Assembly (NCBI GenBank): GCA_044229975.1
Contig: JBGARZ010000021.1
Coordinates: 99,818 to 163,817 of the forward strand
Reading direction: 5' to 3'
DNA: 64,000 bases
DNA from: Polyangiales bacterium
Lineage (GTDB): Bacteria; Myxococcota_A; Polyangia; Polyangiales; Ga0077539
The position numbers and the translations under genes were made by a program. How positions within the stretch are numbered: the stretch's first letter is position 1; each line of letters begins with the position of its first letter. Below are positions 3,001-33,318 of the stretch, piece after piece. The notes below the pieces were generated by a model. The model did not search any database. It had not been told where the DNA came from and was given only the letters and a program-made list of their open reading frames with translations.

Positions 3001-3831
3001 CTACTTCACCGCCTCGATGAGCAGCCCCGTCCCGAGGCGATCACCGAGCAGCCGAACGGCCCATCGCGGGTACAGCTTCCACGCGAGCTTGTGGTGCCAG
3101 CGGCGGTACTTCGCCGCCGGAGGCATCAACAACAGGTCGCCATGAGCGAGCTGCGGCCGCACGTCGGAGCGGTCAAACATCCCCACGAGGTCTTTTGCCT
3201 CGGCCACGGTGTAGGCCTTGGTGCCGGGGCTCTCCAGGTGCTCGAAGACTGCCTGCCGCGGGCTCACCCACGGGCGCAAGCGCACGGCGTAGTGGAGGCC
3301 CCAGAGCATCAGCCCGACCCACGAGGGGTGGTGATAGACCATGATGAGCGCGGTGCCGCCGGGCTTGAGCACGCGATGCACCTCGCGCACGGCGCGGCGG
3401 GTGTCGGGCGAGTGGTGGAGCACCCCGTACGAGTAGACGAGGTCGAAGCTCGCATCGGGGAAGGGGAGGTTCTCCGCGTCGGCGACCTGAACCTCCGCCG
3501 TGAGCCCCTCCAGCGCGAGGCGCTCGCGGGTGAGCGCGACCCCTTCAGGGGTGAGGTCGACGCCCGTGGCGACGGCCCCGTTGCGCACCCAGTTGATGAA
3601 GTCGGTGCCCGCGCCGACGCCGACCTCCAGCACCTTCAGCCCGCGCCCTCGCTCGAAGCGGGCGAAGGGCTTGATGTACGGCTCCCACGCGTAGCGGTCG
3701 CGCTCGATCTCGTCGAAGAAGGCGCGGCGCTCGGCGGGTGATGCCCCACGGGTGCCGCAGGGCTCCGCCTGCCAGTGCCGTCGGACGGCGTCTTTCAACG
3801 CCTCTGCGTCCCGTGCGGTGGGGTGATCCAT
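3001..3831 (-). CDS. Class I SAM-dependent methyltransferase
   Basis: VLEVGVGAGTD motif I, DAENLPFPDASFDLVYSYGVLHH, RVLKPGG. Confidence 0.9.
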   Translation of the reverse strand: MDHPTARDAEALKDAVRRHWQAEPCGTRGASPAERRAFFDEIERDRYAWEPYIKPFARFERGRGLKVLEVGVGAGTDFINWVRNGAVATGVDLTPEGVALTRERLALEGLTAEVQVADAENLPFPDASFDLVYSYGVLHHSPDTRRAVREVHRVLKPGGTALIMVYHHPSWVGLMLWGLHYAVRLRPWVSPRQAVFEHLESPGTKAYTVAEAKDLVGMFDRSDVRPQLAHGDLLLMPPAAKYRRWHHKLAWKLYPRWAVRLLGDRLGTGLLIEAVK

Positions 3832-4068
3832 CGATGCGATGCTCCAATGGCGAGGAAGAAATTGGGGGGCGAACCTGACACCCCCGTTTGCGCCGAGTCA
3901 ACGGTCGGCGCGCGGGCCTCGTCCGATCCCCTGTTGCTCCGGCGCGGCGCTCCGTTCTACCACCGGATGCTTCTCGCGGCGGACTGAACCCCGCGCCGTG
4001 TTGGCGCAACGCACGCCTCCATCGTGCTCCTCCGCTCGTTGGCACCGCGACCCACCCCACAGCACTGA

Positions 4069-6573
4069 ATGCCCGCCATAGACGTCTTGCATCCCCGGCC
4101 CGCCCCCGTGGCGATCAAGCCCCACGCCGCCTGGGCGCGGCCTGCGCTCCTCGCCATTGCGTTCGGTGCGCCGCTCGCGCTCGGCGGTGCTCCCCAGTGG
4201 ACCGTCCCGGTGTTCGCCGTCCTGGGTCTCGTCGCGCTCGCGCTCACCGGCATCGATCGCGCGGTCGCTCCACGTGACCGCCTGCTCGTCGGGTGGTTGC
4301 TGCTGCTCGGGGTGCTCGGCCTTCAGCTCGTTCCGCTGCCGCCGGGCCTTCTCCAGCTCATCGACCCGGCGTCCGCGGCCGCGTCGGCGGGCGCCCTCGA
4401 CCCGTTGCAGATCTCCCGCGCGCACTCCTGGCGAGCCCTGCACCACGACCCCGGCGGCGGCCTGTCCGACTTCGTCTACCTCCTCGGACTCGGCGCCGCG
4501 TACCTCGCCGCGACGCGCGTCTCCTCGCGCGAAGACGGCGACCGGGTGCTGCGCATCGTCGCCTACGCCGCGCTGCTCATCGCGGGCATCGCGCTCGCGC
4601 ACCAGTTCACCGAGCAGGATCGGGTGTTCGCGTTCTATCGGCCGCGCGCCGCAGGGCCGCCCATTCTCTCCCCGCTGCTCAACCCCAACCACCTCGCGGC
4701 CCTCACCGGGGCGGGCGCCATCCTCTGGTTGGGCTTCGCCGTCGCCGCCGATCGCGCCGCCGCGCGCACCATCGCCGCCGTGGCCGCCGTGACCTGCGGC
4801 GTCGTCTGCATGGTGTCCCTCTCCCGCGGCGGCGTCGCGGCGACCGTGGGGTGCATCCTCCTCTTCGTCGCGCTCAACGCGCGGCGGCCACCCTCCGAGC
4901 ACGACGCGCCACGCAAGGGTCCGCAGACCTGGATCGGCCTCGCGCTCGGCGCAGTGATCGTGCTCGCTGGCCTGTATGTCGCGGCGACGTCGCTCAGCGA
5001 CGAGTACGCGCTCGGCGGCGTGAGCAAGCTGGAGACCTTCCGTCGCGCGCTCGGATTGCTGCGCGCCCACTGGCTGCTCGGAGTCGGCTCGGGCGCGGTG
5101 CCCGTCGCGGTGGTGGCCTCCGGTCGCCTCGACCCCGACTTCACCTTCCTCCGCGTCGAGTGCCTCCCGGTCGACCTCGCTGTCTCCTTCGGCCTGCCCG
5201 CCGCCCTCGTGGCGGGTTGGTTCGTGGTGCGGGCCCTCCGTGACTGGTGCCCGCCGGGCAACGCCACGCCCGTCGTGGTCGGCGCGTGGTGCGCGATGCT
5301 CTCGCTCGTCCTCCACGACCTCGTGGACTTCTCGATGTTCCTCGGGGGCGTCGGCTACCCCGCGGCGCTGCTCGCCGGCTACCTCATGGCGCAGCGACTC
5401 CGCCGCTGGCGCCAACCATTGCCCCGCGGCCAGGCCGTGATGCGCGTCCCCGCGTTGGCGCTCCTCGCGCTCGGCCTCGCGCTCGCTCCCTTCGCGTGGC
5501 ACTCGACGCTCGAACCCGACCGCGACCGCATGGAGGCGCTGCTGCGCTCGGACCCGTCGGCCCTCCACGGCGACGCCCTCCGCGGCGCCCTCACGCGCCA
5601 CCCCTCCGACGCGTACCTCCCGCTCCTCGCGGGCGCCCACGCCGCCGCGCAAAACGACCCCGCGGCCCTGCGCTTCGTGGCCCGCGCGCTCGTCATCTCG
5701 CCCAACTGGGCGCAGCCGCATCTCCTGCTCGCCCGCACCTTCGCCGCGCGCGGGCTTCGCTCGCAGGCGCTGGTCGAGCTCCGCGAGGCGCTCTCCCGCT
5801 CCGCGTCGGTCATCCGTCCCGCCGCCGCGCTCGTCGGTCGCCTCCGCCCGCTGCCCTCCCGCGACGAGTTCGAGCGCATCACCCCGCGGGCTCCCTACGG
5901 CCTCAACTTCCTCGACGCCGCGACCGGCCACGAGGGCGTCACCGCGGAGTACCTCGCGGCCATCGACGAGGTCGCCCTCGGGCGCGACCCCACCTACCTC
6001 AACGCCCTCCGTCGTCGCTCGCAGGCCGCCGTGGCCACCGGGCACGACGATGAGGCGAAGGGCTACTGCGATCGCATGGTCACCGGCCACCCGACGCTCG
6101 CCGACGGGTACCTGTGCCGCGGCACCATCCAGGCGCGGCAGGGCGACGACGTCGCGGCGATGCGAACCTTCGCCGCGGGCATCGCGCGGGCGTCCGACAC
6201 CTATGGTCTGCAGATCGCCCGGGCCCGCATCTACGCCGCGCGCCGCGAGGGGCCGTCCATGCGCGAGGCCATCGCCGCCGCCAAGGAAGCTGCCGGCGCC
6301 GACACGCAGCGGCTCGTCGCGGCGTGCGGCATCCTCGGTGAACTCGAGACCTCCCTCGGCAATCACTTCGGGGCCATCGAGGCGTACGTGATGGCCCACT
6401 CCCTCGCGGCCCCGGACACGCCCTTCGTCATCGAGCTGTTGGAGGCGAAGGCGCGCGTCCACGATCGCGCGGGGGTCGAGCAGATCTGCAGCCAGCTCGC
6501 CGAGGGCGGTCCGTTGAGCGCGCGGGTGATGCCGCACTGCAACCGCGGCGCGGTCGGCGACGCCGGGCCTTGA
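4069..6573 (+). CDS. O-antigen ligase/polymerase (Wzy_C)-like membrane protein with TPR-like C-terminal region
   Basis: About 12 hydrophobic segments, NPNHLAA and SLSRGG motifs, LLGVGSG, LHDLVDF, then helical TPR-like repeats; directly upstream of wzc. Confidence 0.78.
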   Translation: MPAIDVLHPRPAPVAIKPHAAWARPALLAIAFGAPLALGGAPQWTVPVFAVLGLVALALTGIDRAVAPRDRLLVGWLLLLGVLGLQLVPLPPGLLQLIDPASAAASAGALDPLQISRAHSWRALHHDPGGGLSDFVYLLGLGAAYLAATRVSSREDGDRVLRIVAYAALLIAGIALAHQFTEQDRVFAFYRPRAAGPPILSPLLNPNHLAALTGAGAILWLGFAVAADRAAARTIAAVAAVTCGVVCMVSLSRGGVAATVGCILLFVALNARRPPSEHDAPRKGPQTWIGLALGAVIVLAGLYVAATSLSDEYALGGVSKLETFRRALGLLRAHWLLGVGSGAVPVAVVASGRLDPDFTFLRVECLPVDLAVSFGLPAALVAGWFVVRALRDWCPPGNATPVVVGAWCAMLSLVLHDLVDFSMFLGGVGYPAALLAGYLMAQRLRRWRQPLPRGQAVMRVPALALLALGLALAPFAWHSTLEPDRDRMEALLRSDPSALHGDALRGALTRHPSDAYLPLLAGAHAAAQNDPAALRFVARALVISPNWAQPHLLLARTFAARGLRSQALVELREALSRSASVIRPAAALVGRLRPLPSRDEFERITPRAPYGLNFLDAATGHEGVTAEYLAAIDEVALGRDPTYLNALRRRSQAAVATGHDDEAKGYCDRMVTGHPTLADGYLCRGTIQARQGDDVAAMRTFAAGIARASDTYGLQIARARIYAARREGPSMREAIAAAKEAAGADTQRLVAACGILGELETSLGNHFGAIEAYVMAHSLAAPDTPFVIELLEAKARVHDRAGVEQICSQLAEGGPLSARVMPHCNRGAVGDAGP

Positions 6574-25657: not shown

Positions 25658-26551
25658 ATGATGGTCAACAACCGCGGCTCGCTCTTCGGGCTGCTCGCGT
25701 GGCAGTGGCGCAACTCCCTCGTCTTCATCGCGGCCGGCGCCGTCGCCCCGGTGATCCACGCTCACGTGGGCTGGACCCACCTCACGCTCCCCTCGACGCC
25801 CATCGCCGTTGTCGGCGGCGCCATCGGCATCTTCACCAGCTTCCGCACCAACCACTGCTACGCGCGCTGGTGGGAGGGCAGGCAGCTCTGGGGGCGGCTC
25901 ATCAACAACGCCCGCGACCTCGCCTCGCTCGCCGTCGCCACGCTCCCACCCGACACGGCCCGCGCGCTCGTCCGTCGGCAGATCGCCTTCGCCCACCTCC
26001 TGCGCTGCTCGCTCCGCGACGAGGACCCCTTCGTCGACGCGGATGTCATCGCCTTCACCGAAGAGGGCGAGCGCAGCGCCCTCGCGCGCGAGCGCAACCC
26101 CGCCTACGCCATACTGCACACGCAGCGCGTGACGGTGACCCGCGCCGCCGACGAGGACGCGCTCCCCGAGCTGCGCCTCCAGGCCTTCGATCGCATCCTG
26201 GGCAACCTCCACGACGTGCAGGGCGGCTGCGAGCGCATCAAGAAGACGCCCTTTCCCAAGGGCTACGGCTTCATCGCCGAGCGGCTCATCCTGGCCTTCG
26301 GGTGCCTCTTGCCCTTCGCGCTCGTGCGCGACCTCGGGTGGTTCACCATCCCGATGAACCTCCTCGTGTGTCTCTCGTTTGCGCTCATCAGCGAGGCGGG
26401 GCGGGTGCTCGAAGATCCGTTCACGATGTTCTTCAACGGGCTGCCGCTGTCGGCGATGTCGAAGACCATCGAGGTCAACCTGCGTCAGCGGCTCGGCGAG
26501 ACCGACGTCCCCGCGATTCCGAAGCCCGACGCTCGCGGCATCCTCATGTAG
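25658..26551 (+). CDS. Bestrophin-family anion channel (YneE-like)
   Basis: SFRTNHCYARWWEGRQLWGRLINNAR, GGCERIKKTPFP, LEDPF...NGLPL. Confidence 0.92.
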   Translation: MMVNNRGSLFGLLAWQWRNSLVFIAAGAVAPVIHAHVGWTHLTLPSTPIAVVGGAIGIFTSFRTNHCYARWWEGRQLWGRLINNARDLASLAVATLPPDTARALVRRQIAFAHLLRCSLRDEDPFVDADVIAFTEEGERSALARERNPAYAILHTQRVTVTRAADEDALPELRLQAFDRILGNLHDVQGGCERIKKTPFPKGYGFIAERLILAFGCLLPFALVRDLGWFTIPMNLLVCLSFALISEAGRVLEDPFTMFFNGLPLSAMSKTIEVNLRQRLGETDVPAIPKPDARGILM

Positions 26552-26935: not shown

Positions 26936-27005
26936 GTGTACCCAAAACGTCGCGCCGCGATGTCCCGCCGCGATCGTCCGCGGGGTGTTCTACCCTCGCG
27001 ACGCC

Positions 27006-27668
27006 GTGCGGGTGCTCCTCGTCGATGACAACGCCGAACTCCGTGAGCTGGTAACCCGCGCGCTCGTCCGCGATGGCCACACCGTGACGGCGGTCGCCAC
27101 GGTGGCCGCAGCGCGCCTCTCGCTGGCCGACGGCGCGCCCGAGGTCATCGTGCTCGACCTCGGCCTCCCCGACGGATCAGGCATGGACCTCTGCCGCGCC
27201 CTCCGCGCCGAGGGCGACCGAACGCCCATCCTCATGCTCACCGCCCAGGGGGCCGTCGCGCGTCGGGTGGAGGGCCTGGAGTCCGGCGCCGATGACTTCC
27301 TCGCCAAGCCCTTCGCGGTGGCGGAGCTGCGGGCGCGGGTGCGCGTGCTCGGTCGACGCGGCCCCTCGGCGTCGCCCACGGTGTGGCGACAGGGGGGCGT
27401 GGCGCTCGACTTCGCGGCGCGGCGGGCGGTGGTCGACGGGGCGGAGGTTCCGTTGACGGCGCGCGAGTGGGCGCTGGTGGAGTACCTCGCGGCGCGCGGG
27501 GGGAGGGTGGTGCGGCGCGGGGAGATTCTCGACGCGGTGTGGGGTGACGACTCGCCGCAAGCGAGCGCGAGCCTCGATGTGTTGACGGCGCGGGTGCGAC
27601 GGAAGCTCGGCGCCGCGACGCTGCGGACGGCGCGCGGCGAGGGCTACGCGCTCGGCGGTGGCGAGTGA
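27006..27668 (+). CDS. OmpR/PhoB-family response regulator
   Basis: VLLVDD, VLDLGLPDGSG, PILMLTA, GADDFLAKPF, winged helix ending RTARGEGY. Confidence 0.95.
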   Translation: MRVLLVDDNAELRELVTRALVRDGHTVTAVATVAAARLSLADGAPEVIVLDLGLPDGSGMDLCRALRAEGDRTPILMLTAQGAVARRVEGLESGADDFLAKPFAVAELRARVRVLGRRGPSASPTVWRQGGVALDFAARRAVVDGAEVPLTAREWALVEYLAARGGRVVRRGEILDAVWGDDSPQASASLDVLTARVRRKLGAATLRTARGEGYALGGGE

Positions 27669-28993
27669 GCGCACGCACCATCGCGCGTCGGGTGGCGCGG
27701 GCGATGGCGGCGGCTGCTGCGTTGGCGGGCGTGCTGTCGGCGGTGCTGGCCACGGGCATCGCGTGGACGTCCATGGTCGAACGCGAAGACCAGCGGCTGC
27801 GCGGTGCGGCGCAGACGTTGGCGGTGGAGGTTCCGTCGACGATGGACGACGCGGCGGCGCGCGCCCACGCCGACGACGAGCAGCGCGAGGTGACGCCCGT
27901 CGGGATGCGCATCGCGCTCTACCGCGGCGGTCGCTTCATCGGCGGCGACGCGATGCTGCGGCCCTCCGACGCGGGCGGCTGCCGCACGATGCCCGATGGG
28001 TGGCGGCGCTGTCGGGTGGAGGTTCCGGGGGCGATGGTCGAGGTGACGGGTGACCTCGCGCCGGCGCGGGCCGAGCGCTCGTTGCTGCTGGGCGCCTCGC
28101 TGCTGGCGGCGCTGCTCGCGGGCCTCGCGGGCCTCGCGTTGAGCGGGGTGGTGTCGGCGCGCATCGTGCGGCCCTTGCAGCGGCTGCGCGAAGAGGTCGC
28201 CGCGGTGGACGCCGACGCGCCGGGGAAGTCACTGCGGGGCGCGGGCGACGGCTACGCGGAGACCGACGCGCTGCGGGCCGCGTTGGCGGAGACGCTCGCG
28301 CGGCTCGACGCGGCGCTGTCGCAGTCGCGGAGGTTTGCGGCCAACGCGGCGCACGAGCTGCGCACGCCACTGGGGACGATGCGGGCCGAGCTGGAGCTCG
28401 CCGCGGAGGTCGACGAGACGCCCGCCGAGGTGGCCGAGGCCCACGCGCGGCTCTTGCGAACCGTCGCGGGGCTCACCGCGCTGGTCGAGCGGCTGCTCAT
28501 CCTGGCGGCGCCCGACGACACGCTGCGCGGCGCGCGGGAGGCGGTCTCGCTCGCGGACGTGGTCGACGAGGCGCTCGCGGGCGTGGACGCGTCGGGTCGG
28601 GTGAGCGTCGCGGTGGACGAGGCGCTGCACGTGCGGGGTGACGCGCTGCTGCTGCGGGTGATGACCGAAAACGCCGTGGGCAACGCGCTGAAGTTCGCGC
28701 CCGAGGGCGAGGTGCAGTTGAGCGTCGAGGCCGACGGGGAGACGGTGGTGCTGTCGGTGAGCGACGAGGGCCCGGGCGTCGCGCCGGGCGATCGGGAGCG
28801 GGTGTTCGATGCGTTCTATCGGTCGGCGGGCGCGCGGGCGGACGGGGTGCAGGGGCACGGCGTGGGGCTCGCGCTGGTGGCGCGCATCGCGCGGGCGCAT
28901 GGGGGCGACGCTGCCTTTGTGGATGCTTCGCGGGGCGCGCGGCTGGTGGTGCGGTTGCCGCGGTGGTCGGCGCGAGCTCAGCCCTCGACCTGA
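27665..28993 (+). CDS. HAMP-domain sensor histidine kinase
   Basis: Two TM segments, AAHELRTPL H-box, NAVGNALKF, DEGPG, FDAFYR, GHGVGL. Confidence 0.94.
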   Translation: MSARTIARRVARAMAAAAALAGVLSAVLATGIAWTSMVEREDQRLRGAAQTLAVEVPSTMDDAAARAHADDEQREVTPVGMRIALYRGGRFIGGDAMLRPSDAGGCRTMPDGWRRCRVEVPGAMVEVTGDLAPARAERSLLLGASLLAALLAGLAGLALSGVVSARIVRPLQRLREEVAAVDADAPGKSLRGAGDGYAETDALRAALAETLARLDAALSQSRRFAANAAHELRTPLGTMRAELELAAEVDETPAEVAEAHARLLRTVAGLTALVERLLILAAPDDTLRGAREAVSLADVVDEALAGVDASGRVSVAVDEALHVRGDALLLRVMTENAVGNALKFAPEGEVQLSVEADGETVVLSVSDEGPGVAPGDRERVFDAFYRSAGARADGVQGHGVGLALVARIARAHGGDAAFVDASRGARLVVRLPRWSARAQPST

Positions 28994-30405
28994 CCCACCT
29001 GCGTGACGGTGGTCGTGGACTTCAGGTCGTCCAGGCGCAGCTCGAAGACCGGCAGGCCCGCGGCCAGCGCCGAGAGCGTGTGCCCGAGCTGCACGCCGGC
29101 CATGGTGCCGATGGCGTCGTTGAGCTCCTGCTCGCCGCCCGGGCCGAGCGCGGCCACGTCGCCCTGGCGCTGGAGAAAGCGCGTCACCTGTCCCCGCAGG
29201 AAGCCACTCACCTGCGGGTGGTTGATGAACATCTGCGACCCCTCGGCCATTGGCGACACCAGCGGGATGCGCGAGAACGCGTCGACCTCGTGGTCGACCA
29301 CCACGTTGACCACGGCGCCCTCGGCGTGACCGCCCGGCAGCACGGCGATCTCGTTGTCCTCGTGACCCTCCCAGCGCAGCGACAGGAAGGCCCGCAAGAA
29401 CGACTCGATGAGCTGCGGTCGCATCCCGTAGCGGTCGGGGTTGGTGAGCGCGAGCCGCAGGTGCCCGCAGCCCAGGTGACCCGGCTGGCTCATCAGCTCG
29501 ATGAGCGCGTCGCGCACGTTCTCGGGAGGCGACGCCATGAAGCGCCGCCACTCCAGCGGTTGGAAGACGTGGGCCAGCGCCTCGTCGAAGCGGCGGTCGG
29601 CGCGCATCGCGGCGATGAGCGTGTTGGAGGCGTTGACGTCGGTGTGGAAGTAGAAGCGCCCGAAGGTGTCGAGCCGGCGCAGCAGCAGCGTGTGCAGCGC
29701 CTTGTCGTCGAGGTGCTTTCCAGTGACCCGCTCCAGCGCGGCGAGGGAGAGCAGAAACTCCCCCGCGTCGCCGCCGGGCGTGCCCATCACCCCGCTGTCG
29801 TCGCGCCCGTCCACGCAGGAGAGGCGGCCGTTGACCAGCAGCGCCGCGATCTTCATCCAGCGCAGCGAGCGGGCGTCGCCGAGGTGGGCCTCGATGTCCG
29901 CGCGGGTGAGGGTCTTCTTCTGGGAGTCCCAGCTCGTTCGGGCGGCGCGCAGCACCCCGCGGCGCGCCAGGATCTCATGGTCGCGCACCGTCGAGAGCCC
30001 CACCTGTCGCCACGCGAGCACGCCGCCGAAGAGGGCTGCCACGAAGCGCTTGCCGAGCCTTTCGAGGCGCTGGGCGAGGGCGCCCGCCCGCTCGCCGCCG
30101 CGCGAGATGAGCACCACCGGGTCGTCGTCGGGGAGGGCCGTCATCGCCGCGAGCGCGCCCTCCTCGGGGACCCAGTCGGAGCCCGGGATGTACCCGAGCG
30201 GCCCGGTGAGCTCGTCGGGTTCGCGCAGGTCGACGAGGCGCACCGCCCGCCCGAGGCGCGACACGTAATCCGCCGTCAGCAGGGGGATGCCGCTGGGGGA
30301 GCGAAACTCCGCGGCGATCCAGTTGATTCGAAACATCCGCTCGGCGGGGTGGACCTCCCCCGCGTCGGGGATGCGCGCGTCGTGCAGTCGGTTCTGGTAG
30401 GGCAT
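28978..30405 (-). CDS. Rhodanese-like domain fused to a putative Cys-His-Cys carbonic-anhydrase-like (zeta/beta-type) domain
   Basis: LVDLREPDELTGPLGYIPGS...LFGGVLAW (rhodanese); SCVDGR, TPGG, FHTD, HLGCGH, GGHAEGAVVNV. Start uncertain; the ORF extends to 30438. Confidence 0.7.
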   Translation of the reverse strand: MPYQNRLHDARIPDAGEVHPAERMFRINWIAAEFRSPSGIPLLTADYVSRLGRAVRLVDLREPDELTGPLGYIPGSDWVPEEGALAAMTALPDDDPVVLISRGGERAGALAQRLERLGKRFVAALFGGVLAWRQVGLSTVRDHEILARRGVLRAARTSWDSQKKTLTRADIEAHLGDARSLRWMKIAALLVNGRLSCVDGRDDSGVMGTPGGDAGEFLLSLAALERVTGKHLDDKALHTLLLRRLDTFGRFYFHTDVNASNTLIAAMRADRRFDEALAHVFQPLEWRRFMASPPENVRDALIELMSQPGHLGCGHLRLALTNPDRYGMRPQLIESFLRAFLSLRWEGHEDNEIAVLPGGHAEGAVVNVVVDHEVDAFSRIPLVSPMAEGSQMFINHPQVSGFLRGQVTRFLQRQGDVAALGPGGEQELNDAIGTMAGVQLGHTLSALAAGLPVFELRLDDLKSTTTVTQVGQVEG

Positions 30406-30509
30406 CGCAGTTGGGAGCGACGATAGCAGCGCCCCCATGGCGGCGCGTCGAAGACGTTCTCGTTGCCCCTTTAACCTCCCTCCCGGCTATGCCTATCCTC
30501 CGCCGAGAA

Positions 30510-31295
30510 ATGGCTACATCCCGCTGGTTCGTCGTGGCCGCGCTCGCCTCCCTCCCTTCGCTCGTGGGCTGCGCGGCCGTGTTCCCCCGGTACACCACGG
30601 CCACCCGGCGCGTGCCCGCCGAGCTCTTGCAGGAGCGCTCGGTGGCGCCGCCCCCGGACGACGTGCGCACCGTGTCCGTGCTCTCCGCGGAGCTTCCGCC
30701 GAGCCGCACCGACGGTCAGCCCTGGGACAGCGACGGCGAGCCCGACCTCTACGCCGTCATCCTGCGCGACGGAACCGAGGTCTACCGCACGCCCGTGATG
30801 CCCAACTCCCTGCGCCCCGAGTGGCGCGCCGCCGAGGTCACGCTGCGGGTGCGTCCCGACAGCGTGCTGCGCTTCGAGCTCTGGGACGACGACGGCATGG
30901 TGAGCCAGCCCGTGGGCTCCGAGCAGGTGACGGGCATCCCCTCGTCGGCGCTCGACGGCGGCAACTGGACCATCCGCTTCCAGGGCAACGCCTTCCTGCG
31001 CCTGGGCGCCCGTCCCCCCGAGGCGCGCTTCGGCATGGGCGTGACCTTCGAGGTGCACGAGGACTACCTGCGCGTGATCTCGGTCGAGGAGGGCTCCCCC
31101 GGCGCGACGGCGGGTCTGCGCGCGGACGACCACATCGTCGCCATCGACGGGCGGTCGGTGCAAGACCTCGGCGAGCTCGACGCCCACCAGGGCATGGACC
31201 GGGCGAGCGTTCGCCCCGTGGCGCTCACGGTGCAGCGCGGCGACACACGAACGCCCATGACCGTCTCGCCCGGCGCGGTCTATTCGGCCCGCTGA
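30510..31295 (+). CDS. Lipoprotein with C2-like and PDZ domains
   Basis: Lipobox LVGC; WDSDGEPDLY...RTPV..NSLRPEW...FELWDDD (C2-like); FGMGV...VEEGSPGATAGLRADDHIVAIDG (PDZ). Confidence 0.8.
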   Translation: MATSRWFVVAALASLPSLVGCAAVFPRYTTATRRVPAELLQERSVAPPPDDVRTVSVLSAELPPSRTDGQPWDSDGEPDLYAVILRDGTEVYRTPVMPNSLRPEWRAAEVTLRVRPDSVLRFELWDDDGMVSQPVGSEQVTGIPSSALDGGNWTIRFQGNAFLRLGARPPEARFGMGVTFEVHEDYLRVISVEEGSPGATAGLRADDHIVAIDGRSVQDLGELDAHQGMDRASVRPVALTVQRGDTRTPMTVSPGAVYSAR

Positions 31296-31374
31296 GAGCA
31301 TCGGAGTGATGGAGTCCCCCAGGAAGGCGCGCGCGAAGAGGCCGATGACGACGAGGCATGGAGTGGTTCGTTCG

Positions 31375-33318
31375 ATGTGGACGCGGTCGGCGCTGGGCGT
31401 CGCCGCGTTGTGGTTGGCGCTCGGGCCCTCGACGGCTTCGGCGCAGACGGTGGGCACCGACACCTCCGTCGACGCGCAGACCTGGTGGCCCGCGGCGGGT
31501 CCGGCCGACCACGTCGGGCTGCGCAGCGCGTCGGTGTCCCCGTCGGGCGCGGTGGGCTTCGGGCTGCTCGCACACGCGATGCGCCTGCCGTTGACGCTCT
31601 CCCCGGTGGCCAACCCGAGCGACCGCCGCGCCGCCGTGGACTACGCCATCACCACGGACTTCCTGTGGTCCGTCGGCATCCTCAACCGCTTCCAGTTGTC
31701 GGCGGCGATTCCGGTCGTGCTCGCGCAGTCGGGCGATGGCGCCCGCGCGGTCAGCGGGTCGAGCGCGGCGGTGCTGGGCGACACGGCGCTGCGCGACATC
31801 CGCGTCGAGCTGTCGTGGGCCATCGTGCGGCGCGAGCGGGTGCCCGACGCGCGCGGCATCGGGCTGCGGCTCGACCTCGGCGCGGCGATTCCGTTCGGCG
31901 ACGACAAGGGCTTCAACGGCAGCGGCGGCCCGACCTTCGCGCCGATGGCCGTCATCGACTGGCGCAATCGCTACCTCACGGCCACGGCCAACCTCGGCGC
32001 GCGCATCCGCCCGACCTCCACCATCGCCGACCTCGCGGTGGGCAGCGTCGGCGTGCTCGGCGCCGGCCTCGCGGTGCGCCCCATCGAGCGCCTGGGCATC
32101 ACGGCCGAGTACCTCACGACGGTCTCGCTCGTGACCCGCGACGGCTTCAACACCACCTTCACGCAAGAACTCTTCGCCGGCGTTCGCTACGCCACGGACG
32201 AGGCGCGGGACATCGAGCTCATCATCGGCGGCGCGGCTCCGCTCACCACGGCCCCGCTCGTCCCGGCGTGGCGCGCCCTGGTGGGCGTGTCGTACGCGCC
32301 GCGCGGCTACGACACCGACCGCGACGGCATCGTCGACGCGGATGACCGCTGCCGCACGCAGGCCGAAGACCGCGACGAGTTCGAGGACGAGGACGGCTGC
32401 CCCGACCCGGACAACGACAGCGACGGCGTGCTCGACACGAGCGACCGCTGCCGCGACGAGCCGGAGGACGTCGACAACCACGAAGACGGCGACGGCTGCC
32501 CCGACCCGGACAACGACAACGACGGGGTCTTCGACAGCGACGACCAGTGCGTGGACGTCCCGGCGGGCGATCACCCCGACGCCGACCGCGCGGGTTGCCC
32601 CATCGCCGACACCGACAGCGACGGGGTGCTCGACCCCGACGACCGCTGCGTCGACGTGGCGCAGGGCGATCGACCCGACCCGGCGCGCGCGGGATGTCCG
32701 CTCCCTGATCGTGACCGCGACGGCGTGGCCGACGCGCTGGACCTCTGCCCCGACACGGCGGCGGGCGCCGTGGTCGATCGGTTCCGTGCGGGCTGCCCGG
32801 AGACCGACCCCGACCGCGACGGCATCGTGGGCGAGGCCGATCGGTGCCCCGATCAGCCCGAGACGATCAACGGCGTTCAGGATGGCGACGGCTGCCCCGA
32901 CGTGGGCGTCGAGCGGGTGACCTGGGGGCCCACCGGCGACACGCTGCGCTTCGCGACGCGCATCGCGGTGGCGCCTCGCGCGCAGACGGTGACCCCGCCG
33001 ACGAGGGCGCTGCTCCAGCAGGCGGCGCAGCGCATCCGGGCGCGCGGCGGTGAGGTGACGCGGGTGATCGTGGAGGTCATGCCGGCGGCGGGTCCGCCCG
33101 CGCAGATCGAAGCGGCGCGCCAGGCGCAGGTGGTGGCCGACGTTCTGTTGGGTGAGCGCATTCCGCAGCGCTCGCTGACGGCGCGAGCGGCGGCGCGACC
33201 GGCGGCGGGTGCGCCCGCGGTGCTGCCGGGGACGGTGGTCATCCGCATCGAGGTGCGCGCGGCGGCGGGCGAGCCGACGGCAGCGCCGACGGCACCCGCG
33301 GCGCGACCGGCGTCCTGA
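31375..33318 (+). CDS. Outer-membrane protein with thrombospondin type-3 repeats and degenerate OmpA-like C-terminus
   Basis: Signal peptide, beta-strand-rich region, many DxDxDGxxDxxDxC...DGCPD repeats, C-terminal alpha/beta domain. Start uncertain (31306-31375). Confidence 0.82.
   Translation: MWTRSALGVAALWLALGPSTASAQTVGTDTSVDAQTWWPAAGPADHVGLRSASVSPSGAVGFGLLAHAMRLPLTLSPVANPSDRRAAVDYAITTDFLWSVGILNRFQLSAAIPVVLAQSGDGARAVSGSSAAVLGDTALRDIRVELSWAIVRRERVPDARGIGLRLDLGAAIPFGDDKGFNGSGGPTFAPMAVIDWRNRYLTATANLGARIRPTSTIADLAVGSVGVLGAGLAVRPIERLGITAEYLTTVSLVTRDGFNTTFTQELFAGVRYATDEARDIELIIGGAAPLTTAPLVPAWRALVGVSYAPRGYDTDRDGIVDADDRCRTQAEDRDEFEDEDGCPDPDNDSDGVLDTSDRCRDEPEDVDNHEDGDGCPDPDNDNDGVFDSDDQCVDVPAGDHPDADRAGCPIADTDSDGVLDPDDRCVDVAQGDRPDPARAGCPLPDRDRDGVADALDLCPDTAAGAVVDRFRAGCPETDPDRDGIVGEADRCPDQPETINGVQDGDGCPDVGVERVTWGPTGDTLRFATRIAVAPRAQTVTPPTRALLQQAAQRIRARGGEVTRVIVEVMPAAGPPAQIEAARQAQVVADVLLGERIPQRSLTARAAARPAAGAPAVLPGTVVIRIEVRAAAGEPTAAPTAPAARPAS

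What the first reader, a model, noticed from the sequence alone, without database searches (positions are those of the whole stretch)
28978..30405. Cys-less rhodanese fused to a zeta (cadmium-type) carbonic-anhydrase-like domain
Seen: the C-terminal domain has CVDGR, PGG, FHTD, GCGH and GHAE.AVVN in the order I recall for diatom CDCA1 repeats, with 58 residues between the FHTD His and the GCG Cys; HLGC also fits the beta-CA HxxC motif. The rhodanese loop reads ISRGGERA, with Ser where the catalytic Cys is expected. Inference: a metal-dependent CO2 (or COS/CS2) hydratase with a non-catalytic, possibly regulatory rhodanese domain.
Basis: partly seen in the sequence, partly recalled or inferred. 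Interest (0 to 1): 0.72.

Follow-up and report, generated by a model that had tools for sequence, protein, structure and literature searches.

The report
Rhodanese-fused zeta-type carbonic anhydrase relative
This bacterial gene encodes a protein whose larger half is predicted to have the fold, and carries the catalytic motifs, of the cadmium/zinc carbonic anhydrase of diatoms. That half is joined to a sulfur-transferase-like domain that has lost its catalytic cysteine, so the protein likely hydrates CO2 (or its sulfur look-alikes) and belongs to a large enzyme family that has no name yet.

Summary
Window 28978-30438 (-) encodes a 486-aa protein. Residues 65-144 are a rhodanese-like domain with Ser112 where the catalytic Cys should be. 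No Pfam model matches residues ~182-469.

An AlphaFold model of that part (pLDDT 91) matches only the diatom cadmium carbonic anhydrase CDCA1, the zeta class. VIA-align gives Z 9.1-9.6, about 180 of about 210 residues aligned and 19-21% identity; the next fold scores Z 4.4-5.2.

The CDCA1 catalytic motifs recur in the same order: CVDGR, HxD, GCG, GxHxE, F and TxxxL. They are almost invariant over 282 domain copies. The family differs from CDCA1 in three ways:
- A 58-residue helical insert lies between the His and the second Cys.
- His326 stands where CDCA1 has Phe537.
- The Pfam CDCA model does not match.

The family is large: 855 clusters at 50% identity, in Myxococcota, other bacteria, protists and a four-repeat Cyanophora protein. 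Ser-type genes often sit beside bestrophin channel or APC permease genes. Cys-type relatives are lipoproteins in sulfide-oxidation loci.

Best reading: a Zn(Cys2His) hydratase of CO2. COS/CS2 hydrolysis is the main rival. No activity or metal binding has been tested.

The parts
28978..30438 (-). Whole ORF, 486 aa plus stop. The likely true start is Met12 at 30405.
   Evidence: Most homologues in A1 start at the column of Met12. The best homologue is 94% identical.
30007..30246 (-). Rhodanese-like domain, residues 65-144. The match to the BpPRF rhodanese domain covers residues 47-147.
   Evidence: Pfam PF00581, E 6.2e-09, 36.7 bits against a cut-off of 22.2. PDB 5ve4/5ve3, E 6.9e-13 and 3.7e-12.
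30103..30105 (-). Ser112 codon, at the position of the rhodanese catalytic Cys (loop ISRGGERA, 30085-30108).
   Evidence: Alignment to 5ve3. Translation. Among 193 fused relatives this position is S 145, C 34, D 8, A 3, G 3.
29032..29895 (-). Zeta-carbonic-anhydrase-like (CDCA-fold) domain, residues 182-469.
   Evidence: Model m759cbc1e8a3f, pLDDT 91.4. VIA-align Z 9.1-9.6 to five CDCA1 entries over model residues 18/19-305.
29803..29817 (-). C208-V-D210-G-R212. Predicted first metal ligand (Cys), pocket Val, and the Asp/Arg dyad. Counterpart of CDCA1-R3 Cys473-Val474-Asp475.
   Evidence: The residue equivalence is inferred from motif order and from an hhalign alternative alignment.
29638..29646 (-). 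H265-T-D267. Predicted His ligand, counterpart of His525 in CDCA1 'svHgD'.
   Evidence: (276/276 for both H and D). The equivalence is inferred.
29476..29637 (-). Insert of about 54 residues (268-321) between the His and the second Cys. It is mostly helical and absent from CDCA1, where His525 and Cys535 are 10 apart.
   Evidence: Secondary structure of the model: helices 268-280, 294-302 and 306-316. CDCA1 numbering.
29461..29472 (-). G323-C324-G325-H326. Predicted second Cys ligand plus Gly, counterparts of Cys535-Gly536. His326 stands where CDCA1 has Phe537.
   Evidence: C 278/278, G 276/278, H 277/278. hhalign aligns GCGH with GCGF.
29320..29328 (-). H371-A-E373 of PGGHAEGAVVN. It matches 'GSHxExxVxIN' of CDCA1 and of bacterial CDCA proteins. 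Its role is unknown.
   Evidence: hhalign pairs the two motifs.
29227..29229 (-). F404, likely counterpart of the CO2-pocket residue Phe603 ('qrFivd').
   Evidence: 277/277 conserved. hhalign pairs QMFINHP with QRFVVDAW. Phe603, indexed.
29065..29079 (-). T454-L-S-A-L458, likely counterpart of the CO2-pocket residues Thr627 and Leu631 ('aTvemLggp').
   Evidence: T 268/274 and L 271/274. T454 lies 15 residues before the end of the VIA alignment, as Thr627 does in 3uk8.
25658..26551 (+). Bestrophin-family channel gene, the recurrent neighbour of this family. In this window the two-component system lies between it and the gene.
   Evidence: Pfam PF25539, E 2.6e-65. A bestrophin gene lies next to the gene in 24 of 81 and 9 of 80 related loci.
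26985..28993 (+). OmpR-type response regulator (26985-27668) and histidine kinase (27665-28993). The kinase is convergent with the gene and their 3' ends overlap by 16 bases. This pair is not a conserved neighbour.
   Evidence: Pfam. Histidine-kinase-like neighbours occur in only 11 of 81 loci, at varying positions.

Best explanation
The gene encodes a cytoplasmic two-domain protein: a rhodanese-like domain without its catalytic cysteine, followed by a domain predicted to have the zeta-carbonic-anhydrase (CDCA1) fold, which likely binds Zn2+ through Cys208, His265 and Cys324 and would hydrate CO2 to bicarbonate.

Shown:
- the domain architecture;
- Ser at the rhodanese Cys position;
- a predicted structure whose only clear match is CDCA1;
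- co-linear conservation of the CDCA1 ligand motifs, Asp/Arg dyad motif and most CO2-pocket motifs;
- recurrent linkage to bestrophin channel genes.

Inferred mechanism:
- A metal-bound hydroxide, oriented by the Asp210-Arg212 dyad, attacks CO2.
- The CO2 is held in a pocket lined by Val209, Phe404, Thr454 and Leu458.
- The invariant His326, which is Phe537 in CDCA1, may shuttle a proton or tune the substrate.
- The bicarbonate formed or consumed likely passes through the linked bestrophin-type anion channel.
- The Cys-less rhodanese domain would act as a binding or regulatory module and would not transfer sulfur.
For: Fold:
- The C-terminal domain model has pLDDT 91.4 and pTM 0.90.
- The top three Foldseek hits are CDCA1 R1, R2 and R3.
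- VIA-align against 48,161 representative chains found one chain with Z of 8 or more: 3uk8_A, Z 9.1, rmsd 4.0, 181 of 214 residues, 21% identity. The next chain scores Z 5.2.
- A second look gave all five CDCA1 entries Z 9.1-9.6, and the next fold Z 4.4.

Catalytic residues:
- PMC8217695 (passages read) names Cys473, His525 and Cys535 as ligands. It names Asp475 and Gly536 as partners of the metal-bound water, and Val474, Phe537, Phe603, Thr627 and Leu631 as the CO2 pocket. It also reports a conserved Asp/Arg dyad.
- Indexed on the CDCA1 sequence printed, these residues fall in kCVDgR, svHgD, lgCGF, qrFivd and aTvemL.
- The window protein has sCVDGR, fHTD, lGCGH, mFinh and hTLSAL in the same order.
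- These positions are conserved at 97.8-100% over 282 domain copies.
- hhalign pairs GCGH/GCGF, GGHAE/GEHKE and QMF/QRF. In an alternative alignment it also pairs SCVDGR/KCVDGR.

Genomic context:
- A bestrophin gene lies beside the gene in 24 of 81 genome loci and 9 of 80 metagenome loci, in several arrangements. A phmmer count gave 28 of 159 loci, 25 of them within 300 bp.
- The window's own genome holds 4 beta-CA genes and 6 bestrophin genes. Two of the beta-CA genes are direct neighbours of bestrophin genes. In this organism bestrophins therefore pair with proven CA classes.
- Cyanophora paradoxa, a photosynthetic alga, has two secreted, membrane-anchored proteins. Each carries four copies of this domain, and all four keep the motifs.
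Against: - Sequence methods do not link the domain to CDCA. Pfam PF18484 gives no hit even at E up to 10. PDB profile searches find nothing. hhalign probability is only 5-11%.
- Foldseek E-values are weak, 0.066-0.23.
- Z of about 9 is only a little above the tool's stated background of 7-8.
- Ligand convergence in 3D could not be measured.
- Phe537 of the CO2 pocket is invariably His here.
- The His-to-Cys spacing is 58 residues against about 10 in CDCA1.
- 34 of 193 fused relatives keep a canonical rhodanese CRSGRRS loop. These sit in sulfur-oxidation loci, which points to sulfur chemistry for at least part of the family.
- The genome already has four beta-CAs.
- In this window the bestrophin gene is 2.4 kb away, behind a two-component system.
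Confidence: 0.55

Rival explanations
1. The same metal site would hydrolyse the sulfur analogues of CO2 (COS or CS2), releasing H2S. In this reading the family is a sulfur-metabolism enzyme. The fused rhodanese, active in Cys-type members, handles the sulfur. The window's Ser-type protein would be a derived form that kept the hydrolase.
For: - CDCA1 itself hydrolyses CS2 (PMC8217695, abstract and passages).
- 34 of 193 fused relatives keep the rhodanese Cys in a canonical CRSGRRS loop and have lipoprotein signal peptides.
- In 159 loci the Cys-type genes, and only they, lie next to DUF6691/YeeE-like membrane proteins (8 loci) and SulP (5 loci). Persulfide-dioxygenase-rhodanese fusions also lie next to them (5 loci, plus 1 locus whose rhodanese could not be typed). 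TauE sulfite exporter and sigma-54 activator genes lie nearby.
- Phe537 replaced by His could change substrate preference.
Against: - The window's protein has no catalytic Cys and no signal peptide.
- Sulfur neighbours (SulP, DUF6691, dioxygenase-rhodanese fusions) were found in none of the 92 Ser-type loci. Those loci carry bestrophin (22) or APC permease (16) genes instead.
- In the same genome bestrophins pair with ordinary beta-CAs.
- SulP next to a CA is also a classical bicarbonate arrangement.
Confidence: 0.25
2. The domain keeps the zeta-CA scaffold and metal site but would catalyse a different reaction on another small molecule, for example cyanate, thiocyanate or cyanamide, or another hydration or hydrolysis. 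The invariant extra residues His326, His371, Glu373, Asp267 and His407 would serve that reaction.
For: - The family has more invariant polar residues than the CA mechanism needs.
- His invariably replaces pocket residue Phe537.
- Neighbours include four unrelated transporter types: bestrophin, SulP, APC permease and CitMHS. That fits uptake or export of some anion without fixing which one.
Against: - The GxHxE motif is also present in true CDCA proteins, so it is not specific to a new chemistry.
- Four of the five CO2-pocket residues and the dyad are kept.
- No neighbour points to cyanate or thiocyanate metabolism.
Confidence: 0.12
3. The domain would be a non-catalytic metal- or ligand-binding module, a sensor or scaffold that only resembles a CA. 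The protein would regulate the neighbouring channel or transporter.
For: The fused rhodanese is itself catalytically dead in this clade. LCIB-type CA homologues are known from general knowledge (recalled, not checked here) to show little activity in vitro in some cases.
Against: Near-absolute conservation of a complete catalytic set (ligands, dyad, pocket) across bacteria, protists and an alga is typical of an active enzyme.
Confidence: 0.06

Closest known systems
CDCA1, the cadmium/zinc zeta-class carbonic anhydrase of Thalassiosira weissflogii (PDB 3BOB, 3BOH, 3BOJ, 3UK8, 7BEZ; Pfam PF18484)
   Same: - Predicted fold: Z 9.1-9.6 with about 180 of about 210 residues aligned.
- Ordered motifs CVDGR, HxD, GCG, GxHxE, F and TxxxL. 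These hold the Cys-His-Cys ligands, the Asp/Arg dyad and 4 of 5 CO2-pocket residues.
- A multi-repeat form exists in an alga, with four copies in Cyanophora.
   Different: - The CDCA HMM does not match.
- A helical insert puts 58 residues between the His and the second Cys, where CDCA1 has about 10.
- The domain is about 100 residues longer.
- Phe537 is His.
- A rhodanese domain is fused at the N-terminus.
- Metal and activity are untested.
Bacterial CDCA-family proteins (about 207 aa) of the same phylum (loci L176-L182)
   Same: Same phylum and the same motif set. One of the seven lies beside a SulP gene.
   Different: They are true PF18484 members, with E 1e-55 to 2.5e-60. One tested (L177) matches CDCA1 repeats at E 1.8e-61. 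They are single-domain, lack the insert and have GCGF. They were found in 7 of 401 genomes sampled, and the window's genome has none.
BpPRF, the persulfide dioxygenase-rhodanese fusion of Burkholderia phytofirmans (PDB 5VE3, 5VE4, 5VE5)
   Same: It holds the closest solved rhodanese domain (E 6.9e-13, residues 47-147). It is an enzyme-rhodanese fusion. Similar dioxygenase-rhodanese fusion genes lie near the Cys-type relatives.
   Different: The rhodanese Cys314 of BpPRF is Ser112 here. The partner domain is a metallo-beta-lactamase-fold dioxygenase and does not have a CA fold.
Bestrophin-carbonic anhydrase gene pairs: beta-CA pairs in this genome, LCIB/theta-type and beta-type pairs noted earlier in this scan, and the algal BST1-3 with LCIB/CAH3
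   Same: A bestrophin gene lies directly beside a CA-type gene. Earlier AI notes of this scan report the same for other CA classes (I did not check them, except that I tested the beta-CA case in this genome).
   Different: Here the partner has the zeta-type fold plus a rhodanese domain. In this window the pair is split by a two-component system. No transport or binding has been shown.
CS2 hydrolase of Acidianus A1-3 and COS hydrolases of the beta-CA fold
   Same: A Zn(Cys2His) site with an Asp/Arg dyad that acts on heterocumulenes. This is the rival function (PMC8217695 passages).
   Different: They have the beta-CA fold. The beta-CA chain 8thm scores only Z 2.6 and PF00484 does not match.

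Membership tests
Zeta-CA / CDCA (Pfam PF18484) | Match to the family HMM above its cut-off (29.2 bits) | tested here: not met
   No PF18484 hit for P0001 at E up to 1. None for 34 diverse family members at E up to 10. None in the whole genome at E up to 10. The positive control L177 scores 203.5 bits.
Zeta-CA / CDCA (Pfam PF18484) | Three-dimensional fold of a CDCA1 repeat | tested here: met
   This compares a predicted model, not a solved structure. VIA-align Z 9.1-9.6, rmsd 3.4-4.0, 176-182 residues aligned and 19-21% identity to five CDCA1 entries. The next fold scores Z 4.4-5.2. Foldseek's top three hits are CDCA1, but with weak E-values of 0.066-0.14.
Zeta-CA / CDCA (Pfam PF18484) | Cys-His-Cys metal ligands in the motifs CVDGR, HxD and GCG | tested here: met
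   All three motifs are present, co-linear and invariant: C208 266/266, H265 276/276, C324 278/278.
Zeta-CA / CDCA (Pfam PF18484) | The three ligands converge on one metal site in 3D | not testable with these tools
   The tools return no model coordinates (one search found none on disk). Only the alignment ranges are consistent.
Zeta-CA / CDCA (Pfam PF18484) | Asp/Arg catalytic dyad (CxDxR) | tested here: met
   D210 267/267 and R212 266/267. The dyad is described in PMC8217695.
Zeta-CA / CDCA (Pfam PF18484) | CO2 pocket of Val474, Phe537, Phe603, Thr627 and Leu631 | tested here: not met
   Four of the five have like residues: V209, F404, T454 and L458. Phe537 is His326 in 277/278 copies. The equivalences are inferred from motifs.
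Zeta-CA / CDCA (Pfam PF18484) | Short spacing (about 10 residues) between the His ligand and the second Cys | tested here: not met
   58 residues lie between H265 and C324. CDCA1 has His525 and Cys535.
Zeta-CA / CDCA (Pfam PF18484) | CO2 hydration activity with Zn or Cd | not testable with these tools
   This needs a biochemical assay.
Rhodanese (Pfam PF00581) | Match to the family HMM above its cut-off | tested here: met
   36.7 bits against a cut-off of 22.2, residues 65-144. Foldseek and PDB matches to rhodanese domains.
Rhodanese (Pfam PF00581) | Catalytic Cys in the active-site loop | tested here: not met
   Ser112 aligns with the Cys of wild-type BpPRF. The position is Ser in 145 of 193 fused relatives and Cys in 34.
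Beta-carbonic anhydrase (Pfam PF00484) | HMM match and a conserved HxxC ligand pair | tested here: not met
   No PF00484 hit. H321 of HLGC is kept in only 189/278 copies.
Beta-carbonic anhydrase (Pfam PF00484) | Beta-CA fold | tested here: inconclusive
   The best beta-CA chain listed is 8thm_A at Z 2.6. 1ekj_B is at Foldseek rank 31, E 0.66.
Theta-CA / LCIB | LCIB fold or sequence match | tested here: inconclusive
   No LCIB chain appears in the lists. A family that is not listed is not thereby excluded.

The most novel reading that the evidence does not exclude
This is a new, widespread branch of zeta-type metalloenzymes whose real substrates are the sulfur analogues of CO2 (COS or CS2) or another heterocumulene. 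The fused rhodanese takes over the sulfur released at the Zn(Cys2His) site, and the invariant His326 that replaces the CO2-pocket Phe sets the new specificity. Periplasmic Cys-type lipoproteins would feed sulfide-oxidation loci. The cytoplasmic Ser-type proteins of Myxococcota would have been re-used with bestrophin channels.
Probability: 0.22. Interest if true: 0.85.

Novelty: new variant of a known kind. Interest (0 to 1): 0.68.

Why it matters
Zeta-class carbonic anhydrases are known mainly as the cadmium enzyme of marine diatoms. This finding points to a much larger family that no Pfam model matches. It has 855 clusters at 50% identity and the same fold and catalytic motifs. It occurs in soil and freshwater Myxococcota, other bacteria, protists and a glaucophyte alga. 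If the proteins are active, three things follow.

- The class gains a second, structurally distinct branch, with an inserted helical subdomain and a His in the substrate pocket.
- Bacterial bestrophins gain a third independent CA-type partner, after beta and LCIB types. This strengthens the case that they carry bicarbonate.
- The Cys-type members in sulfide-oxidation loci become candidates for unrecognised COS/CS2 hydrolases, which matter for the atmospheric COS budget.

All three points can be tested directly with standard assays.

Tried and rejected
- **Sequence routes to CDCA all failed.**
  - Pfam on the protein, on 21 relatives and on 34 relatives.
  - NCBIfam gave only sub-threshold rhodanese-type hits.
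  - PDB searches by phmmer and by profiles of A1 and A3, and by the Cyanophora protein.
- **hhalign of A3 against seven true bacterial CDCA proteins.** It gave only 5-11% probability. The global mode failed. The motif pairings are suggestive but not statistically significant.
- **A wrong Pfam accession.** I first recalled PF10563 as the CDCA family. It is a different family, 'CA_like', with an LCNxHxHxxAEH motif. PF18484 is CDCA. The PF10563 searches therefore say nothing about zeta-CA.
- **Foldseek with the full-length model.** It returned only rhodanese hits, so I folded the C-terminal domain alone.
- **Beta-CA reading of HLGC.** Rejected, because H321 is not conserved.
- **LCIB/theta-CA.** No such chain appeared in any structure list.
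- **Model coordinates.** None are available to scripts, so no ligand distances were measured.
- **ESM Atlas.** It was unreachable or did not hold the sequences.
- **The two-component system and the C2-PDZ gene beside the gene.** Neither is a conserved neighbour.
- **Literature.** Seven searches found no paper describing this family or a rhodanese-zeta-CA fusion. The library lacks most subscription journals.
- **Earlier findings of this scan.** Nothing by sequence or by the full word set.
- **Not used.** I ran no complex prediction, because I do not claim that these proteins bind. I did not look for expression data.


Full report
**The gene.** The window is about 70-74% G+C. The only long frame with homologues at this place is 28978-30438 on the minus strand, 486 aa. 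That is the likelier start, and I saw no clear ribosome-binding site before either ATG. The 3' end overlaps by 16 bases the stop of a convergent histidine kinase gene (27665-28993), which follows an OmpR-type regulator gene (26985-27668). A C2-PDZ protein gene lies divergently at about 30411-31295. The protein has no signal peptide; this is my reading of the sequence.

**The observation.** Exactly 58 residues lie between His265 and Cys324.

**The rhodanese domain.**
- Pfam finds only Rhodanese, residues 65-144, 36.7 bits against a cut-off of 22.2.
- The closest solved chain is the rhodanese domain of the persulfide dioxygenase-rhodanese fusion BpPRF, E 6.9e-13.
- In the alignment to the wild-type entry 5ve3, the catalytic Cys faces Ser112.

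**A large family without a Pfam model.**
- A word-indexed search found 540 proteins with E of 0.001 or less among the 7,997 candidates scored. Of the 120 listed, 119 carry only PF00581, lengths are 433-517 aa, and source names point to Myxococcota.
- 176 relatives were found in the one-genome-per-species collection. The titles of the 80 kept name Polyangiales, Nannocystaceae, Sandaracinaceae, Myxococcaceae, Archangium, Corallococcus, Minicystis and Nannocystis.
- Within an even sample of the phylum, 7 of 81 genomes have the domain. The window's genome has one copy.
- An exhaustive search with the C-terminal part alone (P0122, residues 165-486) found 855 cluster representatives at E of 0.001 or less, and 199 at 1e-30 or less. 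They include stand-alone proteins of about 300 aa, rhodanese fusions, and two proteins of about 1,880 aa with four copies.
- Pfam matches this domain in none of 21 and then 34 members scanned.

**Structure.**
- The full-length model (36-sequence alignment) has pLDDT 90.2 and pTM 0.87. Foldseek with it returned only rhodanese domains.
- The C-terminal domain folded alone has pLDDT 91.4 and pTM 0.90.
- Foldseek against the PDB gave no hit at E of 0.001 or less. Its three best hits are the three repeats of CDCA1: 3boh_A (E 0.066, probability 0.87, TM 0.47 on the target), 3bob and 7bez_B. 3uk8_A is at rank 10.
- VIA-align against 48,161 representative chains gave a single chain with Z of 8 or more. 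It is 3uk8_A, with Z 9.1, rmsd 4.0 A, 181 of 214 residues aligned and 21% identity, over model residues 19-305. Next is a HAD phosphatase at Z 5.2.
- The second look at Foldseek's 999 candidates gave Z 9.1-9.6 for all five CDCA1 entries, then Z 4.4. A carboxysomal beta-CA scored Z 2.6.
- The tool warns that a best Z of 7-8 is common background. The Z value alone therefore does not carry the case. What does is the gap to the next fold, the coverage of about 85% of the CDCA1 repeat, the 19-21% identity and the motifs below.

**Residue-level comparison.** I first mis-recalled the Pfam accession. PF10563 is another family, and PF18484 is 'CDCA'.
- Searching 401 genomes of the phylum with PF18484 found true CDCA proteins in 7 (E 1e-55 to 2.5e-60). 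They are about 207 aa. One of them, L177, was tested. It matches the CDCA1 repeats at E 1.8e-61 to 8.3e-56 and scores 203.5 bits on PF18484.
- One search prints the CDCA1 sequences. PMC8217695 (passages read) gives the functional residues of repeat 3. The ligands are Cys473, His525 and Cys535. The metal-bound water is held by Asp475 and Gly536. The CO2 pocket is Val474, Phe537, Phe603, Thr627 and Leu631. The Asp/Arg dyad is conserved as in beta-CAs.
- Counting along the printed chain (index + 411) puts these residues in kC-V-D-g-R, svH-g-D, lgC-G-F, qrF-ivd and aT-vem-L-ggp.
- The window protein reads sC208-V-D-G-R212, fH265-T-D267, lgC324-G-H326, mF404-inh and hT454-lsa-L458-aaGlP, in the same order.
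- 'ggH371aE373gaVvN' faces 'gsHeEkvVyiN'.
- Thr454 lies 15 residues before the end of the structural alignment, exactly as Thr627 does in 3uk8.
- Over 282 domain copies these positions are nearly invariant: C208 266/266, D210 267/267, R212 266/267, H265 276/276, D267 276/276, C324 278/278, G325 276/278, H326 277/278, H371 275/277, E373 277/277, F404 277/277, T454 268/274, L458 271/274.
- Profile-profile comparison of the family (A3) with the seven CDCA proteins (A5) pairs GCGH/GCGF, GGHAE/GEHKE and QMF/QRF. A low-threshold alternative also pairs SCVDGR/KCVDGR. The probability is only 5-11%, however, and that alternative does not align the His motif.
- The equivalences are therefore inferred from order, spacing and structure ranges. 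I could not measure them in 3D, because the tools give no coordinates.

**Differences from CDCA1.**
- The CDCA HMM does not match.
- A mostly helical insert (helices 268-280, 294-302 and 306-316) separates the His from the second Cys.
- Further helices (408-423, 435-458) lengthen the C-terminal part.
- Phe537 of the CO2 pocket is His in 277 of 278 copies.
- The beta-CA-like HxxC is accidental, since H321 is kept in only 189 of 278 copies.

**Context of the window's type.** I clustered ORFs from 80 related genome loci plus the window.
- A bestrophin-family gene (PF25539, E 2.6e-65 for the window's copy at 25658-26551) lies next to the gene in 24 of 81 loci. In some it is directly downstream and convergent. 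In others it is directly upstream on the same strand.
- In the window a two-component system separates the two genes by 2.4 kb. In 80 metagenome loci, 9 more have the bestrophin neighbour.
- A single-query phmmer count gives 28 of 159 loci, 25 of them within 300 bp.
- An APC-family permease gene lies upstream on the same strand in 16 loci.
- The window's genome has 6 bestrophin genes and 4 beta-CA genes, and two beta-CA genes are direct neighbours of bestrophin genes. One pair is at contig 23, 539600-540427 and 540577-541041, same strand. The other is at contig 29, 30483-30929 and 31536-32366, divergent.
- Earlier AI notes of this scan report bestrophin next to LCIB-type or beta-type CAs in several other bacteria. 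I did not check those notes beyond the beta-CA case above.

**Context of the Cys-type relatives.**
- Among 193 fused proteins retrieved, the rhodanese position is Ser in 145, Cys in 34 (typically VCRSGRRSA), Asp in 8, Ala in 3 and Gly in 3.
- The four Cys-type proteins I read (P0183, P0184, P0188, P0204) start with lipoprotein-type signal peptides (my reading of the lipobox).
- In 159 loci (S 92, C 33, A 5, D 3, no or partial rhodanese 26), the following neighbours occur only with Cys-type genes: DUF6691/YeeE-like membrane proteins (8) and SulP transporters (5). Metallo-beta-lactamase-rhodanese fusions of the BpPRF type also lie beside them (5, plus 1 untyped locus).
- TauE sulfite exporter and PAS-sigma-54 activator genes lie nearby in the loci examined. 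One Cys-type locus has a CitMHS/TrkA-C transporter directly downstream.
- Bestrophin neighbours split S 22, C 4, A 1, partial 1. All 16 APC neighbours are Ser-type.
- Many contigs are short, so all these counts are lower bounds.

**Eukaryotes.**
- The two four-copy proteins are from Cyanophora paradoxa (EukProt names). Each has a signal peptide, four domains that all keep CIDGR, H[TS]D and GCGH, and a C-terminal membrane helix. Neither has a rhodanese part.
- Low-G+C metagenome loci with stand-alone copies carry eukaryotic neighbours such as MOZ/SAS, PHD, villin headpiece and EML.

**Interpretation.** The C-terminal domain is best read as a distant structural relative of zeta-CA that keeps the full catalytic set.
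- For the window's Ser-type, cytoplasmic protein I commit to CO2/bicarbonate interconversion at a Zn(Cys2His) site, working with a bestrophin-type anion channel. My confidence is about 0.55.
- The main rival is COS/CS2 hydrolysis, at about 0.25. It rests on the CS2 activity of CDCA1, the active rhodanese and sulfur neighbourhood of the Cys-type relatives, and the Phe-to-His change in the pocket.
- A different hydration chemistry and a non-catalytic role are less likely.
- Nothing about metal, activity or channel coupling has been tested.

**Literature.** Seven full-text searches found no description of this family or of a rhodanese-zeta-CA fusion. I read passages of PMC8217695 and PMC4413181. 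All other papers were seen only as search listings. Most subscription journals are outside the library.

Noticed in passing
L176-L182 (G240, G387, G257, G289, G189, G356, G281); none in the window: True CDCA-family (PF18484) zeta carbonic anhydrases of about 207 aa occur in 7 of 401 sampled genomes of this phylum. One of them matches the diatom CDCA1 repeats at E 1.8e-61 over 206 residues. That is a striking closeness between bacterial and diatom enzymes.
   Followed up: partly
Own genome, contig 23 539600-541041 and contig 29 30483-32366 (loci L082/L086, L084/L089): Two of the genome's four beta-carbonic anhydrase genes are direct neighbours of bestrophin-family channel genes. One pair is on the same strand 150 bp apart, the other is divergent. 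The genome has six bestrophin genes in all.
   Followed up: partly
Proteins P0129 and P0144 (Cyanophora paradoxa, EukProt): Two proteins of about 1,880 aa. Each has a signal peptide, four tandem copies of this zeta-like domain with all motifs intact, and a C-terminal membrane helix. This recalls the three-repeat build of diatom CDCA1.
   Followed up: partly
L172-L174 (G067, G166, G311): PF10563 'CA_like' proteins with an LCNxHxHxxAEH motif occur in 3 of 401 genomes of the phylum. The two I read in full start with what I read as signal peptides. This is another rare putative carbonic anhydrase family there.
   Followed up: no
L093 4930-12444, L112 3192-7425, L099 4122-13327: Cys-type lipoprotein relatives sit in apparent sulfide/persulfide-oxidation loci. 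Neighbours are a DUF6691/YeeE-like protein, SulP, a metallo-beta-lactamase-rhodanese fusion, a TauE sulfite exporter, a PAS-sigma-54 activator, and in L093 the lipoprotein transferase Lgt.
   Followed up: partly
Window 28978-28993: The stop-proximal 16 bases of the gene overlap the end of the convergent histidine kinase gene (27665-28993). No room is left for separate terminators.
   Followed up: no
Window 31306-33318 (+): A 670-aa protein with a signal-like N-terminus and many acidic D-x-D-x-D-G repeats (my reading: thrombospondin-type-3-like calcium-binding repeats). It has no Pfam match at E of 0.001 or less.
   Followed up: no
Window 30411-31295 (+): A protein that combines a C2 domain (E 2.4e-07) with a PDZ domain (E 8e-14). 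The combination is unusual for bacteria. The gene is divergent from the gene studied.
   Followed up: no
L048, L050-L052, L059, L062 (Nannocystis), about 3336-5903: An APC-family permease gene lies directly upstream of the gene on the same strand in Nannocystis and related loci (16 loci in all, all Ser-type). In L060 an APC permease gene is followed at once by a bestrophin gene.
   Followed up: partly
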